A program made the translations under genes and the position numbers. Positions 1 to 4,794 of a stretch of 4,794 nt of DNA are shown piece after piece (position 1 is the stretch's first letter; each line of letters begins with the position of its first letter). The notes under the pieces were generated by a model that worked only from the letters and a program-made list of their open reading frames with translations, was not told the DNA's origin and did not search any database. Source of the stretch: a virus (taxonomy: Duplodnaviria > Heunggongvirae > Uroviricota > Caudoviricetes); IMG/VR virus record IMGVR_UViG_2648501669_000016, positions 1 through 4,794 of that record; one strand, 5' to 3'.

Positions 1-14
1 GTTTACCATGTTCA

Positions 15-24
15 CCCCCCCCCC
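15..24. repeat. Homopolymeric C10 (plus) / G10 (minus) tract immediately 3' of the ssb stop codon
   Basis: Ten consecutive C at 15..24. On the minus strand this reads TGA-GGGGGGGGGG-TGAAC-ATG, where the ATG at 9..7 could start a further downstream minus-strand gene (only 3 codons, M-V-N, are inside the window). Confidence 0.9.
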
Positions 25-459
25 TCAGAATGGCGCTTCATCGTCGAATGGTGGGCGCTGGTCGTATTCATCACGGGTTGACTGCTGCGCACGTCTCAGC
101 GCGTCCGTCGCCTGTCCCCGCTGGCTATTTTTGCCTCCCTGTCGCACCGTTCGCGCACTGATTACGCTGTCTGCGATAACCTGCCAGCCCTGCCGCGTTT
201 CGCCGTTCTGGCCTGTCCACTGGTTCACCTGCATGTTACCCGCCACGCTCACAAGGTCGCCTTTGTGGTGCTTTGCCAGTGCGTCGGCCTGTCTGCCAAA
301 GGCAGTTACGGCAAGCCATAGCGTCGCCTGCCCGTCGTCTGCGTTATGGCACGGCACTGATACCGCCATGCGTGCCAGCGTCATGCTTGTGCCTTTGCTG
401 GTCTGTTTTACCTGCGGCTCGTCCACCAGCCGCCCGTATGCTGAAATTTGTGCTGTCAT
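25..459 (-). CDS. ssb: Single-stranded DNA-binding protein (SSB family, OB fold plus acidic C-terminal tail)
   Basis: The translation matches the SSB pattern: GRL..EP near the N-terminus, W-x-x-V-x-x-FG...KG..V.V.G.....WT.Q.G..R in the OB-fold core (LWLAVTAFGRQADALAKHHKGDLVSVAGNMQVNQWTGQNGETRQGW), and a C-terminal tail PPFDDEAPF resembling the canonical SSB tip DDDIPF. The stop codon is TGA at 27..25. The start is placed at ATG 459..457, which overlaps the upstream ORF stop as TAATG; an in-frame GTG at 468 is an alternative start (the ORF track runs 25..468). Confidence 0.8.
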   Translation of the reverse strand: MTAQISAYGRLVDEPQVKQTSKGTSMTLARMAVSVPCHNADDGQATLWLAVTAFGRQADALAKHHKGDLVSVAGNMQVNQWTGQNGETRQGWQVIADSVISARTVRQGGKNSQRGQATDALRRAQQSTRDEYDQRPPFDDEAPF

Positions 460-668
460 TAAGCGCACTCCATTCTTGATAACGTGTCGTCAATATTCCC
501 AGCGGCTCGTTTCAGGTAGTCCATGCTGTCATTTAGTCGGGATAATTCGCCAGCCAGTAACAAGGCCGCCGCCTCCTGCGCGGTGAACCCCTGCGCTTCA
601 ATCTCTCTAACAACTTCGATCTGCTTTTTATGATGTTCGTTCATTTTTTCGCCCTTTAGCTGAATCAT
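459..668 (-). CDS. Small hypothetical protein (61-69 aa) between the iteron region and ssb; function unknown
   Basis: An ORF on the same strand as ssb, with its stop TAA (461..459) overlapping the ssb ATG (TAATG), which suggests translational coupling. There are two candidate starts: ATG at 668 preceded by a G7 run, and ATG at 644 preceded by AAGGGCG with about 6 nt spacing. The translation (MNEHHKKQIEVVREIEAQGFTAQEAAALLLAGELSRLNDSMDYLKRAAGNIDDTLSRMECA) has no motif I can assign. Confidence 0.5.
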   Translation of the reverse strand: MIQLKGEKMNEHHKKQIEVVREIEAQGFTAQEAAALLLAGELSRLNDSMDYLKRAAGNIDDTLSRMECA

Positions 669-669
669 A

Positions 670-694
670 CCCCCCCTGTGAATCTTTTTGGGGG
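670..694. promoter_or_regulatory. C7 / G5 inverted repeat (potential hairpin) directly upstream of the small ORF start
   Basis: The plus strand has cccccccc at 670..676, a 13-nt spacer (tgtgaatcttttt) and ggggg at 690..694. On the minus-strand mRNA this would pair the G-rich stretch immediately 5' of the ATG at 668 with an upstream C-run. No U-tract follows on either strand, so it is not a classical intrinsic terminator. Confidence 0.3.
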
Positions 695-700
695 TGTAAT

Positions 701-946
701 ATCCCTACCAATCCCTACCAATCGATAAAACCCATATGTGGCGCGGCTTTCAGGCTGGTAGGGCATTGTTTTTCTACCCCTACTTATCCCTACCTATCCC
801 TACCAAATACCAAAAAACGGTTATGCGTGGCTTCTTGTTTAGTAGGGATATGTAGGGATATGTAGGGATAAATATATATATCCCTACCAGTCTACAAGCC
901 CCGTCATTACTGGCCTTAAATGACTTTGTAGGGATAGGTAGGGATA
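701..946. repeat. Iteron array; putative origin of replication (ori / cis replication region) of the element
   Basis: Direct-orientation ATCCCTACC copies at 701-709, 711-719, 786-794, 796-804 and 880-888, with a partial copy at 777-783. Inverted-orientation GTAGGGAT copies at 842-849, 852-859, 862-869, 928-935 and 938-945, with a degenerate ggtagggca at 757-765. The tandem copies are spaced 10 bp apart. An AT-rich aatatatata sits at 871-880 between inverted and direct copies. The block is non-coding and lies immediately 3' of the primase-helicase stop at 960-962. Confidence 0.75.
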
Positions 947-959
947 AATCAGGGGTAAA

Positions 960-3416
960 CTATTCATCACCCCCTTCGGCGGTGCTGCTGCCATATGCTC
1001 GCGGTATAAACTCCTCCGCCAACTCATTGATCCCAACGTTCGTCTGCGCTCTGCCGTTAATGCTGCGTGTCAGGTAGTTAGCCCTGTATTCTCTGGCGGC
1101 TGATTTAATCGCCCGTGAGAACTTGTTGACGGAAAGCGGCTTCCCTAGCCCGTGATATTCCATAAAGGCCAAATAAAGGTGATACAGGTAAGTTCTCGGC
1201 TCTGGCTGTCCTGCCCACGTTCCTCCCCCCATCATCATTCCCTTCGGCTCGTTCATAAAATACAAGGCCGCGCACATGTCTATGACCGGATCTGTCCCGC
1301 GCTTAACGCCCAACGCCTCTGCGGAATCGCGCTGCTCGATTAAAAGCGCTTTAGCTTTGTTCTGGTCGGCAAACATTGCCAGCAAGTGACGAATAATTAC
1401 CGGCATTTCACGGCAGATCTTCGCTGTCAGGTCGGGGTCTTTCTCCGCTTCTGATACCGGATTATCGAACGGGAATATCACACGGCGGCGGGCAATGCCC
1501 CCGTTGCGCTCGGTAAAGGTCATTGGTTCGTTGTTGGTTGCGAGAACAACGGCATTTAGCACGGTGGTGAACTGCTTTTCATACTTACCATCAATCTCTA
1601 CTGGGTCGCCGCCTGTAATGGCCTTTATCCCTGCGCCTTCGCCAACATAGCGGGTCTGGTCTGGCATGATAATCAGGCTTTTTCCTACAAGCTGCGCCCG
1701 CCCTCTGGCTGTGTCTAGCGCTCCCATGCTGGCGCTGGCTGTGTTGTGCTCACCTGCCAGTGATACGGCTATGCTGCTGAATACGGATTTCCCACTGCCG
1801 CCCTCGCCAGTTATCTCAATGAATAGCTGCCAGTCGTGACGCTTCGCCAGCACCATAAACAAGGCTGCTTTGATACGCTCGGCCTTATGATGGTCGCCAG
1901 CCGTTGCATGATTCAGCCAACGGGTAAAATTGGGGGCGCTGGTGGTAATATTTTCCCCCGGCGCTGGCGGGGTGTAGGTGATCCCATTGTGGTTCATCAG
2001 CCAGTTACCCGGCGAATGGGCGGAAAACGTCTGCGTAGCGAGGTCATAAACGCCGTTATCAAAACCAATCAGATCCCCGCTCCGCTCACCAATTACCGGT
2101 ATTTGCAGCTTCATGGTTGCGACAACCGATTTAATCCCCTTTTCGGTGTAGTGGGCTTCGTGCTCGTCGAAAATTGCCACCATAACCCTTTCTAATTCGC
2201 TGTCTGGTAGCTTCACCCATACGCCAGATTCGTAGCAGTAAACAGTGCCACTATCTGGGTTAACCGCCAACATATCCCATCGAGATGAAAGCAACCGCGC
2301 TTTCTGGCTGGCTGCCATTTGTGCAATATCTCCGACATCGGCTTTACGGCGGGATTTACCGCCAGCAATGGCCTGTAGTTGTGGTTTCACGCATTCCCCC
2401 TGCGGCCGGTACATCGAATCGTTAATCGCAGCCGTAGCGACTTCCAGCCCGTGTTGCTGGTGGTAGTCGTTCCAGTCAGCTTTGCTGTCAGTCGGTGGCA
2501 GCGATACCCAGCCAGCCACGGATAAAGCTGCTTTCTCTGCGGCCTCCTTCCCGATGTTGGTGGCTCCGGTTTCGGAGGCTGCTGTAGGGTGGTCGTTATC
2601 TGCGGCGATAATAATTTGCGACTGCGGGTATTTCCGGCGCATTACTCCGGCAACGTGGATCAGGTTCCCGGCGTCAATTGCTGCCACTGCCAGCGCGTCC
2701 GGGCGCATCAGGTGAACAGACAGAGCGGTAGCCAGCCCCTCGGCAATTAAAACGCTCTGCGGCGATTCTGGCGCGTTTACGGCGTGATATGCCCCGCGCT
2801 TTGCTGAACCTGTCAGGAGTCGCTTCTCTCCCTGCGGTGTAATGGTTTGCGCTGCTGCCACTGCGCCGGATTCGTCCACCAGCTCCAGCAATAACGAACC
2901 ATCCGGCATAACCGGATAGTTAAACCCGGTCAGCCCTTTTGATTGCAGGTAATCAGATTCGCCCTGTGTGGCACTCTGGCGCATTCCGGCATACAGATGG
3001 GCAAACGTAGCCCTTCGCTGCTCTGCGTCCTCTGCTGCCTGTTTCTGGCGCTCCTGCTCACGCTGCTGGCGGTCGGCTTCCAGTTGCTCTCTTCTATGGC
3101 TCGCTGCCGCCGGGTCGGTTTGCGCTGCCCGGTAATCAATACCCAGCACGTCAGCGGCAAGCTGTGCCGCCTCCGTGGTGTCGCAGTTGTTAACCCGCTT
3201 GATTAAATCCAGCCCGTCACCAGCGCCACACTGGTTGCAGATAAAGCTACCGCGCCCGTTGTCGTCGAATCTGAAACGGTCTTTTCCACCACATGCAGGG
3301 CAGGGAGCATGACGGCGCGGAGAGTCAGGGACATTTATGTTCAGGCAGCCCAGCACATGAGGCCAGTTGTTTTCAGACGCACTGATAACCTGACGGATAA
3401 GATCAATGTTTCGCAT
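960..3416 (-). CDS. Primase-helicase fusion protein (zinc ribbon + TOPRIM-type primase + SF3 / P4-alpha-type helicase); replication initiator of a mobile element
   Basis: An 818-819 aa ORF. A CxxC-17-CxxC zinc ribbon (CPACGG...CNQCGAG) is encoded around 3228..3302. The primase region carries the conserved glutamate motif IAEGLATA and the acidic motif IIAADNDH. The helicase region has Walker A GEGGSGKS (nt 1785..1808), a Walker-B-like LIIMPD and an SF3 motif-C-like VLATNN. A charged E/Q/R-rich linker lies between the zinc ribbon and the primase domain. The start is placed at ATG 3416..3414; an in-frame GTG at 3419 is one codon upstream (the ORF track runs 960..3419). Confidence 0.9.
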   Translation of the reverse strand: MRNIDLIRQVISASENNWPHVLGCLNINVPDSPRRHAPCPACGGKDRFRFDDNGRGSFICNQCGAGDGLDLIKRVNNCDTTEAAQLAADVLGIDYRAAQTDPAAASHRREQLEADRQQREQERQKQAAEDAEQRRATFAHLYAGMRQSATQGESDYLQSKGLTGFNYPVMPDGSLLLELVDESGAVAAAQTITPQGEKRLLTGSAKRGAYHAVNAPESPQSVLIAEGLATALSVHLMRPDALAVAAIDAGNLIHVAGVMRRKYPQSQIIIAADNDHPTAASETGATNIGKEAAEKAALSVAGWVSLPPTDSKADWNDYHQQHGLEVATAAINDSMYRPQGECVKPQLQAIAGGKSRRKADVGDIAQMAASQKARLLSSRWDMLAVNPDSGTVYCYESGVWVKLPDSELERVMVAIFDEHEAHYTEKGIKSVVATMKLQIPVIGERSGDLIGFDNGVYDLATQTFSAHSPGNWLMNHNGITYTPPAPGENITTSAPNFTRWLNHATAGDHHKAERIKAALFMVLAKRHDWQLFIEITGEGGSGKSVFSSIAVSLAGEHNTASASMGALDTARGRAQLVGKSLIIMPDQTRYVGEGAGIKAITGGDPVEIDGKYEKQFTTVLNAVVLATNNEPMTFTERNGGIARRRVIFPFDNPVSEAEKDPDLTAKICREMPVIIRHLLAMFADQNKAKALLIEQRDSAEALGVKRGTDPVIDMCAALYFMNEPKGMMMGGGTWAGQPEPRTYLYHLYLAFMEYHGLGKPLSVNKFSRAIKSAAREYRANYLTRSINGRAQTNVGINELAEEFIPRAYGSSTAEGGDE

Positions 3417-3774
3417 CACCGTACCCCACGTGGTCTATAGCGTTTGCGATATGGCTAACCAGCATCTGCCACTTGGTTATTCCGTAATCAGTCAGCATGC
3501 CATCATTGTTTAGCCACATATCAAATTCAGCGGTTGTCGCAAGTTTCCACTTATCGCCGTGGACAGTCCTCATTGCTGGGTACATGAATGCGCAAATCAG
3601 ATCACAAACATCTGACGGCTTCAGAGATGTAGTAATGGTGCGTCCCTCTGGCGTCTGAATTGCCATTTTCTCTTCACCAGTAGAATGAAGGTTATGAATC
3701 CACACAGCACCAGCAATCTTTGCCACCTGCTCTCCGATTGCGGAGCTAAGCGCCATTTCTACATTTTCACGCAT
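3403..3774 (-). CDS. Hypothetical protein (123 aa), translationally coupled to the primase-helicase gene
   Basis: The ATG at 3774 is preceded by a strong SD (GGGAGG, 5 nt spacer). The stop at 3405..3403 overlaps the primase start by 14 nt. Same strand as its neighbours, no gaps. I recognise no motif. Confidence 0.6.
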   Translation of the reverse strand: MRENVEMALSSAIGEQVAKIAGAVWIHNLHSTGEEKMAIQTPEGRTITTSLKPSDVCDLICAFMYPAMRTVHGDKWKLATTAEFDMWLNNDGMLTDYGITKWQMLVSHIANAIDHVGYGDAKH

Positions 3775-4108
3775 GAGAACCTCCCGCTACAGTTGCGCCC
3801 ATGTCATTAACCATGCTTTGCCATATCTCACGCCCGACGTCAGTCAATCTGTCCTTAGTGACGCAACGATCAAGAAGCTCGATCCCCACGGTTTCCCACT
3901 GCGGGTAGAACACTTTCATGGCTGCCAGTGTGTAGCTATCGATCAGGCTGCGAACGCCTTTTACTCCATTGACGATTTCCACACGGACGGCCTCTCCGTC
4001 CGCATCAATCATGAAATAGTCCCCGCCGCTGGTGGAGGTAATGTGGTTATACAGTGCTGACGCATACTTATTTGCCAGCGCATTCAGTCGGAAATTTTTA
4101 GTAATCAT
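3767..4108 (-). CDS. Hypothetical protein (113 aa)
   Basis: The ATG at 4108 is preceded by GGATGGAGCC, containing a GGAG SD. Its last codons (..GGSHA, nt GGGAGGTTCTCATGCGTGA) encode the SD and start of the next gene, with an 8-nt overlap ATGCGTGA. I recognise no motif. Confidence 0.6.
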   Translation of the reverse strand: MITKNFRLNALANKYASALYNHITSTSGGDYFMIDADGEAVRVEIVNGVKGVRSLIDSYTLAAMKVFYPQWETVGIELLDRCVTKDRLTDVGREIWQSMVNDMGATVAGGSHA

Positions 4109-4118
4109 GGCTCCATCC

Positions 4119-4721
4119 TCAGTGCGTCACTGGTTCCGCTGGCATGCCGTTTTCATTCAGTTCAGCTATAAAGCTGTTGTGAAGTTCAGCAAGCGTTTCA
4201 CGACCAAATGGAGTCAGTGCTCCTTGTTCCACATCCATCATGGCTCTGTAGAAAATGATGGCGCGTTCTGTGCCAGACTCGATGCCAAAACGTTCTATCA
4301 TCGCGCCCTCAATGTTGTTTGCCATAGCGAGGCGCTCTGCTACTGGATACAGCGACATGGCGACGATGCCGTTGGAATAAACAGCCACTTCGGAAGGATT
4401 GCCAGTATCATCAATGATGCTGACAGTGCCGTTTTCCTTTCTCATTTCATTGATGAATGCTGTTGCTATCAGCCAGCGCCACATAATCACGTGATGCTGT
4501 GATGTGTAATCGAAATATCCCTGGTTGCCGCCACTGGCAATAGCGAGATGTATAAACATGCCTTCATCTGGTTTATCGTCATAATCCCCGGCATCCAGAC
4601 GATTTACGGCATCAATATATGAGACGGTCTCAACGCGTTCTGTCATGCCATCGTTGCTGCGGTACATGATGTTTACGCCGTCAGGCGTTGCTTCTGCATG
4701 GAAAGTTAAGAAATTATTCAT
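4119..4721 (-). CDS. Hypothetical protein (200 aa from ATG 4721; 211 aa if started at ATG 4754)
   Basis: A long minus-strand ORF. The ATG at 4721 has a GAGG SD 6 nt upstream and overlaps the stop of the upstream partial ORF (ATGAATAA), so I prefer it as the start. The ATG at 4754 is in frame but lacks an obvious SD. The stop TGA at 4121..4119 lies 10 nt before the next start. Function unknown. Confidence 0.6.
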   Translation of the reverse strand: MNNFLTFHAEATPDGVNIMYRSNDGMTERVETVSYIDAVNRLDAGDYDDKPDEGMFIHLAIASGGNQGYFDYTSQHHVIMWRWLIATAFINEMRKENGTVSIIDDTGNPSEVAVYSNGIVAMSLYPVAERLAMANNIEGAMIERFGIESGTERAIIFYRAMMDVEQGALTPFGRETLAELHNSFIAELNENGMPAEPVTH

Positions 4722-4794
4722 GTTTCGCCTCGCCTGAATGATTCTGTAACTCATATTTGCCCAACAATTCGTCCGCTTCCTGAATAGCTTCTGG
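4714..4794 (-). CDS. 3' end of an upstream gene running in from beyond the window edge (partial; C-terminus ..PEAIQEADELLGKYELQNHSGEAKHE)
   Basis: An open frame with no stop runs from the window edge at 4794 to TAA at 4716..4714, and that stop overlaps the downstream ATG at 4721. Only 26 codons are visible, so coding status rests on frame continuity and the coupling geometry. Confidence 0.35.
   Translation of the reverse strand, partial: PEAIQEADELLGKYELQNHSGEAKHE

What the first reader, a model, noticed from the sequence alone, without database searches (positions are those of the whole stretch)
459..700. Small ORF with a G-run and hairpin at its translation start, coupled to ssb
The 61-69 aa ORF sits between the iterons and ssb, and its stop overlaps the ssb start (TAATG). 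Immediately 5' of its ATG at 668 is a G7 run that can pair with a C-run 13 nt further upstream, which would occlude the ribosome binding site. A small protein at an origin with structured translation control could be a copy-number or replication regulator. This is speculative.
Basis: inference. Interest (0 to 1): 0.35.

Follow-up and report, generated by a model that had tools for sequence, protein, structure and literature searches.

The report
Small gene beside a satellite origin
The small reading frame is a real, conserved gene for a 61-residue helical protein read together with ssb in a phage-satellite island, but the G-run/C-run "hairpin" in front of it is the edge of the replication origin and not a dedicated switch for translating this gene.

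Summary
The ORF (459..668, minus strand), the TAATG overlap with ssb, the G7 run (670-676) and the C5 run (690-694) are all present. The inverted repeat is non-random, and as RNA it would fold at about -9 to -10 kcal/mol.

- The gene is real: dN/dS is 0.12-0.27.
- The only invariant start is ATG 644 (61 aa). It has its own Shine-Dalgarno sequence, AAGGG, which stays accessible. The hairpin buries only the non-conserved ATG 668.
- The G-run belongs to a conserved box, AAAAAGATTynnA-G6-9-TA. This box follows the last iteron of P4-family-primase origins in PICI, capsid-forming-PICI-like and P4-like satellites.
- The box occurs in front of four unrelated first genes, and once in front of no co-oriented gene.
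- 14 of 24 distinct box variants lack the C-run, so the pairing is lineage-specific.
- The small gene also occurs without the box.
- The protein is an acidic helix-turn-coiled-coil orphan, usually followed by SSB or ProQ. Nothing links it to copy-number control.

Verdict: an ordinary first cistron of the post-origin operon, next to an apparently undescribed origin-edge box of unknown function.

The parts
459..644 (-). Small gene, conserved form: 61 codons from ATG 644 plus stop TAA 461-459. Predicted product is helix 3-17, a turn, then a long helix 22-60.
   Evidence: Met at 644 is the only invariant column in 34 homologues. dN/dS is 0.12-0.27 with synonymous sites near saturation. AlphaFold2 mean pLDDT is 95. 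The family is acidic, and 10 of 11 a/d heptad positions in helix 2 are hydrophobic.
645..668 (-). In-frame 8-codon extension (MIQLKGEK) from ATG 668. It is present only in the closest relatives, so the 69-aa isoform is probably minor or unused.
   Evidence: The extension peptide differs between close relatives (MIQLKGEK, MNQKGVEK, MNQKEWKK) whose bodies are about 95% identical. More distant homologues begin at MNEHH. Against that, two Klebsiella-type loci (L001, L161) have ATT in place of the conserved ATG, which leaves only the upstream ATG.
652..656 (-). Shine-Dalgarno sequence AAGGG serving ATG 644.
   Evidence: Predicted anti-SD duplex is -4.4 kcal/mol with a 6-nt spacer. Every homologous locus has a purine-rich SD at this position, -3.1 to -8.0 kcal/mol. 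The site is accessible in the predicted mRNA ensemble.
668..689 (-). Origin-edge box AAAAAGATTCACA-G7-TA. The G7 run occupies 670-676.
   Evidence: 24 distinct instances were compared. AAAAAGATT is 83-100% conserved, G6-9 is always present, and T then A follow in 71% and 67%. In viral contigs, 24 of 35 exact hits lie 269-305 nt downstream of a P4-family primase gene on the same strand. Nine more lie beside iterons, and two look like chance.
690..694 (-). C5 run, the lineage-specific partner that turns the box into an inverted repeat or hairpin.
   Evidence: A C-run of 4 or more is present in 10 of 24 distinct box variants. It is absent or degraded in 14, including L152, L155 and the whole clade with about 49% primase identity.
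700..950 (.). Iteron origin: about 13 copies of TATCCCTACC / GGTAGGGATA at 10-bp spacing, in opposed sets around the AT-rich stretch 870-880.
   Evidence: Repeat analysis. The layout matches that described for origins of Gram-negative PICIs (PMC6092414).
960..3419 (-). P4-family primase-helicase, 819 aa.
   Evidence: Pfam Zn_Ribbon_Prim, Toprim_3, D5_N, DUF5906 and Pox_D5. NCBIfam TIGR01613, phage/plasmid primase P4 family.
25..459 (-). ssb, 144 aa from ATG 459. It is translationally coupled to the small gene through TAATG and has its own SD, GGAG, at 471-468.
   Evidence: Pfam SSB 3.8e-17, PHROG 44, TIGR00621. SD duplex is -5.9 kcal/mol.
7..24 (-). G10 run (24-15) followed by TGAAC and ATG (9-7), the start of the next gene, which is cut off by the window end.
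   Evidence: Read directly from the sequence. Anti-SD duplex is -11.6 kcal/mol. It is a second case in this window of a G-run lying just upstream of a start codon.

Best explanation
The window is the replication module of an integrated Gram-negative PICI-type phage satellite. All genes lie on the minus strand, in the order primase-helicase, iteron origin, post-origin genes.

The ORF is the first cistron of the post-origin operon. It encodes a 61-residue acidic protein with a short helix, a turn and a long coiled-coil helix. Translation starts mainly at ATG 644 from its own AAGGG Shine-Dalgarno sequence. The gene is translationally coupled to ssb through TAATG. From its charge, its coiled coil and its conserved neighbours (SSB, ProQ-like), I infer that it acts through protein-protein contacts within the satellite's nucleic-acid-handling cassette. 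I do not think it is a DNA- or RNA-binding copy-number regulator.

The G7 run is not this gene's ribosome binding site. It is the invariant end of a conserved box, AAAAAGATTynnA-G6-9-TA, which closes the iteron array of P4-family-primase origins. The C5 run that makes it a hairpin is an elaboration found only in this sub-lineage. I infer that the box acts at the DNA level as part of the origin, for example as a boundary, a priming site or a host-factor site. Which of these applies was not resolved.

If the box is transcribed by read-through from the primase gene, the stem would have a side effect: it would silence the strong but badly spaced G-run/AUG 668 site and leave AUG 644 open.

Shown: gene reality, conserved start, coupling, box distribution, non-conservation of the pairing. 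Inferred: DNA-level origin function, protein-protein role, read-through transcription.
For: Element identity:
- P4-family primase and opposed iteron sets around an AT-rich core.
- Relatives carry int, an AlpA-type regulator, an antirepressor and Icd upstream, and SSB and PerC downstream, all co-oriented. This matches published PICI organisation (PMC6092414, PMC11773190).

Gene:
- 33 homologues, with only Met9 invariant.
- dN/dS 0.12-0.27.
- An SD before the conserved ATG in all 12 loci.
- The extension peptide varies while the AAGG SD inside it is kept.
- pLDDT 95 for the helix-turn-helix model, pI 4.5-6.1 and a heptad seam.
- The next gene is SSB or ProQ-like in most loci, usually with overlapping or nearly abutting stop and start.

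Box:
- It is found behind three iteron classes and in front of four unrelated first genes.
- In E. coli relatives, homology runs 760..668 and stops right after the G-run.
- It appears in 24 distinct variants spanning primases of 48-90% identity, with the C-run in only 10.
- It sits at a constant 269-305 nt after the primase gene.
- In a capsid-forming-PICI-like element it follows iterons, and no co-oriented ORF of 60 aa or more lies in the ~300 nt before fis/dusB on the opposite strand.
- P4 crr has an A-tract/T-tract palindrome at the equivalent place after its iteron pair.

Other readings excluded:
- No terminator and no sigma-70 promoter by consensus scan or PWM scan versus shuffles.
- No Rfam family.
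Against: - No experiment or transcript map is available. A DNA-level origin role for the box is inferred only from position and distribution.
- The G-run and C-run do form a stable RNA stem here, so an RNA role in this lineage is not excluded.
- Two loci (L001, L161) carry ATT at the conserved start, so the ATG next to the G-run may be used there. Within the close clade the upstream ATG always stays in frame at 24 nt.
- P4 itself lacks the G-run, so the box is not universal to P4-family origins.
- The protein's function rests on neighbourhood and physico-chemical features only. No homologue of known function was found.
Confidence: 0.55

Rival explanations
1. The C-run/G-run stem is a translational operator that occludes the ribosome binding site of the small ORF, and the ORF encodes a copy-number or replication regulator.
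For: The stem is favoured as RNA: -9.2 kcal/mol for the core and -18.1 kcal/mol extended, z = -2.5. The G-run is a strong anti-SD partner at -10.9 kcal/mol. Opening the G-run plus AUG 668 costs 9-11 kcal/mol. In L001 and L161 the upstream ATG is the only ATG left.
Against: - The conserved start is ATG 644, with a separate and accessible SD.
- The G7 run leaves at most 3 nt between a 5-nt SD and AUG 668. This is read from the sequence. That it is shorter than the usual optimum is established knowledge, not tested here.
- The motif precedes unrelated genes or none, and the gene occurs without the motif.
- The C-run is missing from 14 of 24 variants and no compensatory changes were seen.
- The gene accompanies three different replicase and iteron types.
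- The protein is acidic and has no similarity to Rop or other regulators.
Confidence: 0.1
2. The box is a transcription signal for the post-origin operon, for example an activator-dependent or unusual promoter, or a pause or antitermination loading site. The variable G-tract would tune its strength.
For: - In most loci the box lies 20-30 nt upstream of the first post-origin start codon.
- Positions -6 to -1 (TTyacA) resemble a -35 hexamer, and TA often follows the G-run.
- G-tract length varies from 6 to 9, even between near-identical flanks.
- Loci that have the small gene but no box carry AT-rich, TATAT-like sequence at the same place.
Against: - No sigma-70 promoter in the consensus scan.
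- The PWM scan finds no promoter at a conserved position, and scores are no better than shuffles.
- In L224 the box is followed by about 300 nt and then host genes on the opposite strand.
- Published work describes PICI genes as transcribed in one direction, with AlpA activating its own promoter and acting as an activator of island genes (PMC6092414). That the post-origin genes depend on read-through from that upstream promoter is my inference.
Confidence: 0.15
3. The stem-loop acts in the polycistronic RNA, for example as a processing or stability element or a protein-binding hairpin like a nut boxB. It would separate primase expression from post-origin expression.
For: A GC stem with an A-rich loop forms stably. 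In L003 one C-run position is T, which would keep a G-U pair in RNA. No terminator lies between the primase gene and the small gene, so read-through is plausible.
Against: The pairing partner is missing in most box variants. The loop is 11-13 nt, not a boxB-like pentaloop, and no boxA is evident (read from the sequence). There is no Rfam match. L224 has no co-oriented downstream gene.
Confidence: 0.1
4. The box has no function of its own. It is a relic sequence, or a homopolymer-rich recombination junction, that hitch-hikes with origin modules.
For: Homology between elements breaks exactly at the G-run. Flanks on both sides are mosaic. The G-tract length is unstable.
Against: AAAAAGATT and the G-run are more conserved than the iterons beside them. 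This holds across primases as low as 48% identity and across several satellite types, at a fixed distance from the primase gene. That argues for selection.
Confidence: 0.1

Closest known systems
Replication module of Gram-negative phage-inducible chromosomal islands (EcCICFT073-type pri-rep plus ori; Fillol-Salom et al. 2018, PMC6092414)
   Same: A P4-family primase-helicase is followed directly by an origin with two opposed iteron sets around an AT-rich core. The post-origin genes are co-oriented. Relatives carry int, an AlpA-type regulator and PerC-like genes.
   Different: In the passages of that paper I read with term searches, neither the conserved A-tract/G-run box at the downstream edge of the origin nor this 61-aa gene appeared. 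I did not read the paper in full. Helper dependence was not tested here.
Phage P4 alpha protein with its crr and ori iteron regions (NC_001609)
   Same: The primase-helicase family is the same. An iteron region lies just 3' of the gene. Some relatives (L004, L006, L154) use the same GTGAACA/TGTTCACC iteron as P4. After the terminal iteron pair, P4 has an A-tract/T-tract palindrome where the box sits here.
   Different: P4 has no G-run or C-run. It has a terminator after alpha, and attP and int follow crr instead of an SSB operon.
RBS-sequestering mRNA hairpins (translational operators)
   Same: A stable stem would bury a Shine-Dalgarno-like G-run and the adjacent AUG 668.
   Different: The buried start is not the conserved one. 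The pairing is not conserved and does not co-occur with the gene.
Rop/Rom of ColE1 (small helical copy-number regulator) and Rpp proteins of E. coli PICIs (small post-origin proteins that redirect packaging, PMC6739421)
   Same: All are small, all-helical proteins encoded next to a replication origin. For Rpp the location, after a PICI origin, is also the same.
   Different: No sequence or fold similarity to any solved structure was found, and Rop and Rpp entries were not among the matches. The helices are unequal (15 and 39 residues), unlike the Rop hairpin as I recall it. No TerS-like DNA-binding domain is present.

Membership tests
Gram-negative PICI-type satellite (replication module) | P4-family primase/helicase (pri-rep) gene | tested here: met
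   Pfam Zn_Ribbon_Prim, Toprim_3, D5_N and DUF5906. TIGR01613 scores 108.8 bits against a cut-off of 108.7.
Gram-negative PICI-type satellite (replication module) | Origin immediately 3' of the replicase, with two iteron sets flanking an AT-rich region | tested here: met
   About 13 copies of a 10-bp iteron in opposed sets around 870-880. The criterion is taken from PMC6092414.
Gram-negative PICI-type satellite (replication module) | Integrase and AlpA-type regulator upstream, genes co-oriented, no virion structural module | tested here: inconclusive
   This lies outside the window. It is met in three related elements that carry the same primase and origin: L001, L014 and L143.
Gram-negative PICI-type satellite (replication module) | Induction, replication and packaging dependent on a helper phage | not testable with these tools
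   Requires experiment.
RBS-occluding translational operator | The stem sequesters the SD and start codon that are actually used | tested here: not met
   The conserved start ATG 644 and its SD cost 1.9-4.5 kcal/mol to open. Only the non-conserved ATG 668 is buried, at 9-11 kcal/mol.
RBS-occluding translational operator | Pairing maintained, ideally with covariation, among homologous genes | tested here: not met
   The C-run is present in 10 of 24 box variants and no compensatory changes were seen. Five loci have the gene but lack the motif.
Intrinsic (rho-independent) terminator | GC-rich stem with a short loop, followed by a U-tract | tested here: not met
   No terminator-like site in 1-1100 on either strand. 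The loop is 13 nt and the stem is followed by UAUGAUUC (read from the sequence).
Sigma-70 promoter | -35 and -10 hexamers 16-18 bp apart, at a conserved position | tested here: not met
   The consensus scan finds none on the minus strand. PWM best hits fall at inconsistent positions and are mostly no better than shuffles.
Rop/Rom-like copy-number regulator | Sequence or fold similarity to the Rop helical hairpin | tested here: not met
   No PDB sequence hit below E = 0.04 and no Foldseek hit below E = 2.7. The model has unequal helices, 3-17 and 22-60.
Rpp (PICI redirecting-phage-packaging) proteins | TerS-like winged-helix DNA-binding domain plus a C-terminal dimerisation region | tested here: not met
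   No similarity to any solved chain. The model has only two helices.
SSB family (downstream gene) | OB-fold SSB domain | tested here: met
   PF00436 at 3.8e-17. TIGR00621 scores 62.4 bits against a cut-off of 53.95. The acidic C-terminal tip reads DDEAPF.
Known RNA families (Rfam 15) | Covariance-model match over 640-710 | tested here: not met
   Only sub-threshold chance hits to miRNA and snoRNA models, elsewhere in the window.

The most novel reading that the evidence does not exclude
The box AAAAAGATTynnA-G6-9-TA is a previously undescribed functional element of satellite replication origins. It is shared by PICI, capsid-forming-PICI-like and P4-like elements whatever their iteron specificity. 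It might be the priming or helicase-loading site, or a host-factor site, with a G-tract of variable length that could tune firing. Separately, the 61-aa acidic coiled-coil protein would be a new partner of satellite SSB or ProQ proteins.
Probability: 0.3. Interest if true: 0.5.

Novelty: new variant of a known kind. Interest (0 to 1): 0.3.

Why it matters
As originally framed, a hairpin-controlled copy-number regulator, the finding would have been a new control circuit at a satellite origin. The evidence does not support that.

What remains is modest but useful in three ways.
1. It corrects the start of a hypothetical gene that is annotated in RefSeq as 69 aa.
2. It shows that the slot between origin and ssb holds interchangeable small genes.
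3. It points to a conserved, apparently undescribed box at the edge of P4-family-primase origins in several satellite types and genera.

[quoted passage not shown] It would also give a simple sequence marker for locating these origins.

Tried and rejected
Family and structure searches for the small protein found nothing usable:
- Pfam, PHROGs and NCBIfam gave nothing above threshold.
- An HMM search of 1.84 billion representative proteins returned 8 hits. Six are short proteins of the same narrow family. Two are weak multi-stretch matches in long proteins (1111 and 551 aa) that I did not examine.
- PDB sequence search, Foldseek against PDB and Foldseek against viral structures gave no significant match.
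- The 61-aa protein shows no similarity to the 100-aa protein that occupies the same slot in E. coli relatives.

Searches for related DNA:
- Megablast against phages found nothing.
- The genome-contig scan with the protein alignment returned only one locus.
- The 14-mer scan CCCCCAAAAAGATT was mostly noise and added nothing new.
- The box variant from the clade with about 49% primase identity is absent from E. coli genomes and from the phage collection.
- The box sequence appears in no paper in the searchable library.

Readings of the box considered and rejected:
- Intrinsic terminator: no U-tract.
- Sigma-70 promoter.
- Rfam family.
- Lambda-type cos site: the sequence is unlike cosN as I recall it, and the cos sites of EcCICFT073 resemble those of lambda and phage 80.
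- IHF, DnaA, Fis, sigma-54, sigma-E and RfaH ops sites, and the P22 pac site. I compared these by eye with consensus sequences recalled from memory. None fitted across the variants.
- attP or attR: in this element the island continues for several kilobases past the box.

Single-stranded DNA folding of the repeat is not better than shuffles.

Full report
**What is in the window.**
All long ORFs lie on the minus strand. An 819-aa protein (3419..960) carries a T7-type primase zinc ribbon, Toprim, D5_N, DUF5906 and Pox_D5 domains, and it just passes the NCBIfam model "phage/plasmid primase, P4 family". Downstream, 950..700 holds about 13 copies of a 10-bp iteron (TATCCCTACC / GGTAGGGATA) in opposed sets around an AT-rich core. 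Next come the small ORF (668/644..459), ssb (459..25), and a G10 run in front of the next start codon at 9.

Related elements in E. coli and Klebsiella have, upstream and co-oriented, an integrase, an AlpA-type regulator, an antirepressor, DUF4222 and an Icd-like gene. Downstream they have SSB, PerC-like and other small genes, within islands of 12-17 kb. [quoted passage not shown]

**Checking the observation.**
Every item is present.
- Stop TAA 461-459 shares A459 with the ssb ATG 459-457. ssb has its own GGAG at 471-468.
- The minus strand reads C5 (694-690), AAAAAGATTCACA (689-677), G7 (676-670), T, ATG (668-666).
- CCCCC-N9-17-GGGGG is expected 0.02 times per window by chance.
- As RNA, region 710..640 folds at -18.1 kcal/mol (z = -2.5), and the bare C5:G5 stem is -9.2 kcal/mol.

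**The gene is real, but it starts at 644.**
A search of 5.8 billion proteins found 33 relatives, all in Enterobacteriaceae or unlabelled metagenomic and sequencing-run assemblies. In the alignment the only invariant column is Met9, which is ATG 644. More distant members begin MNEHH, and only the nearest relatives carry an 8-residue extension.

That extension differs between close relatives (MIQLKGEK, MNQKGVEK, MNQKEWKK) whose bodies are about 95% identical. The purine-rich AAGG inside it is kept. This suggests the constraint is on a Shine-Dalgarno sequence and not on a peptide. All 12 loci examined have an SD before the conserved ATG.

Over 57 ungapped codons, synonymous differences are near saturation (pS 0.66-0.85) while pN is 0.19-0.29, giving dN/dS of 0.12-0.27.

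In ensemble calculations with four different 5' ends:
- opening the G-run plus AUG 668 costs 9-11 kcal/mol;
- opening the SD plus AUG 644 costs 1.9-4.5 kcal/mol.

The G-run pairs strongly with the anti-SD (-10.9 kcal/mol). However, it leaves at most 3 nt before AUG 668.

One caveat applies. Two Klebsiella-type loci (L001, L161) have ATT at the conserved start, so the upstream ATG may be used there.

**The hairpin is not tied to this gene.**
The same C-run/loop/G-run motif sits after the last iteron in three iteron classes: GGTAGGGAT, GGTAGAC and GTGAACA. It lies in front of four unrelated first genes: this 61-aa gene, a 100-aa gene, a 126/132-aa gene, and ssb itself.

The 100-aa protein shows no similarity to the 61-aa protein. 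Conversely, five loci carry the small gene and lack the motif (L006, L007, L008, L011, L012). In 75 E. coli genomes the homology to the window runs from 760 to 668 and stops just after the G-run, which marks a module boundary.

**What is conserved is a box, not the pairing.**
I took 80 viral-contig loci that encode relatives of the primase (48-90% identity) and scanned the 650 nt after each primase gene. Among 24 distinct instances:
- AAAAAGATT is 83-100% conserved;
- the G-run (6-9) is always present;
- T then A follow in 71% and 67%;
- a C-run of at least 4 is present in only 10.

It is lost in L152 (GAGACCAT-AAAAAGATTTACA-G8), in L155 and in the whole clade with about 49% primase identity.

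An exact scan for AAAAAGATTTNNAGGGGGG in viral contigs gave 35 hits:
- 24 lie 269-305 nt downstream of a P4-family primase gene on the same strand;
- 9 more lie beside iterons;
- 2 look like chance.

In one capsid-forming-PICI-like element (L224) the order is terS, terL, iterons, box, about 300 nt, then host fis/dusB on the other strand. There the box cannot be the leader of a co-oriented gene.

Phage P4 has, after the terminal iteron pair of each crr repeat, an A-tract/T-tract palindrome at the equivalent position. It has no G-run.

The box is not a terminator, not a recognisable sigma-70 promoter and not an Rfam family. It does not appear in the searchable literature.

G-run length varies from 6 to 9, even between near-identical flanks. 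This could be real instability or homopolymer sequencing error.

**The protein.**
AlphaFold2 with 21 sequences gives a confident model (pLDDT 95) with helix 3-17, a turn and helix 22-60. The family is acidic (pI 4.5-6.1), and helix 2 has a clean heptad seam with 10 of 11 a/d positions hydrophobic.

No family, solved structure or predicted viral structure matches. A profile search of 1.84 billion representatives found nothing of known function: six short members of the same narrow family and two weak matches in long proteins that I did not examine.

The gene accompanies three replicase types: P4-alpha-like, a 599-aa D5_N helicase, and DUF927. This argues against a replicon-specific copy-number role. 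Its usual neighbours are SSB and ProQ-like proteins, often with overlapping stop and start. A role through protein-protein contacts in that cassette is my inference, not a result.

**Conclusion.**
The ORF is a genuine first cistron of the post-origin operon, coupled to ssb.

The G-run/C-run repeat is best read as the downstream edge of the origin. It is a conserved A-tract/G-run box to which this lineage has added a complementary C-run. If the box is transcribed, the stem would mask the spurious G-run/AUG 668 site and leave the real start open.

The proposed structured translational control of a copy-number regulator is not supported. The function of the box remains open. I favour a DNA-level origin role (about 0.5 of my belief), ahead of a transcription signal, an RNA element or a neutral junction.

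Noticed in passing
window 7-27 (minus strand): Directly after the ssb stop (27-25) there is a G10 run (24-15), then TGAAC and an ATG (9-7) that opens the next gene. It is a second case in this window of a G-run lying just upstream of a start codon. Here its 3' end is 5 nt from the start codon, so it could plausibly serve as the Shine-Dalgarno sequence.
   Followed up: partly
window 645-700; L014 14762-14785; L020, L144 and L143 box regions: G-tract length differs between otherwise near-identical sequences: G6, G7 and G8 in the E. coli-type flank, and G7, G8 and G9 in the window-type flank. C5A5 also alternates with C4A6. This could be slipped-strand variation or homopolymer sequencing error.
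   Followed up: partly
L001 about 8487 (minus strand); L161 about 5262: Two Klebsiella-type relatives have ATT instead of the otherwise invariant ATG of the small gene (giving MIQLKGEKINEHH). Only the ATG next to the G-run is left. Either the long isoform is used there or ATT initiates.
   Followed up: partly
Slot between origin and ssb: L014 14437-14739; L016-L019; L015 and L153: The position between the origin box and ssb holds interchangeable unrelated small genes (61 aa, 100 aa, 126/132 aa) or none. In the two cases checked (the 61-aa and 100-aa genes) the stop abuts or overlaps the ssb start. It behaves as a variable slot.
   Followed up: partly
L224 (oriented) 6600-7350; L238 (oriented) 800-1700: In capsid-forming-PICI-like contigs the same box follows a GGTGCACAG-type iteron cluster that is not next to a primase gene. 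In L224 it lies after terL and about 300 nt from host fis/dusB. In L238 it lies about 400 nt upstream of a 316-aa ORF and further ORFs of unidentified function.
   Followed up: partly
L223 (phage P4) 4285-4300 and 4468-4482, minus strand: Each 120-bp crr repeat of P4 ends with the iteron pair GGTGAACAGTGTGAACA, followed by an A-tract/T-tract palindrome (AAAAAAAACTTTTTT or AAAAAAAATTTTTT). L004 has CCCCCAAAACTTTTTAGGGGGG at the same place.
   Followed up: partly
window 1955-1972 (minus strand): A second C-run/G-run inverted repeat (CCCCGCCAGCGCCGGGGG) lies inside the primase coding region. It is identical in the E. coli relative L014. It is probably just coding sequence.
   Followed up: no
window 3403-4754 (minus strand): Three co-oriented genes lie upstream of the primase gene (211, 113 and 123 aa). 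They have no Pfam or NCBIfam family. Two match PHROGs of unknown function (phrog_1515 and phrog_37628).
   Followed up: no
window 457-468: The mechanical ORF list starts ssb at GTG 468. Comparison with SSB genes that directly follow the box (MTAQISAYG...) shows the real start is ATG 459. This is what creates the TAATG overlap.
   Followed up: yes
L003, L007, L001 and L009 downstream regions: A few genes after SSB and PerC, several relatives encode a protein of about 900-1020 aa with weak tape-measure similarity, or a 612-aa protein with SLT (lytic transglycosylase) similarity. This is unusual cargo for a PICI-type island.
   Followed up: no
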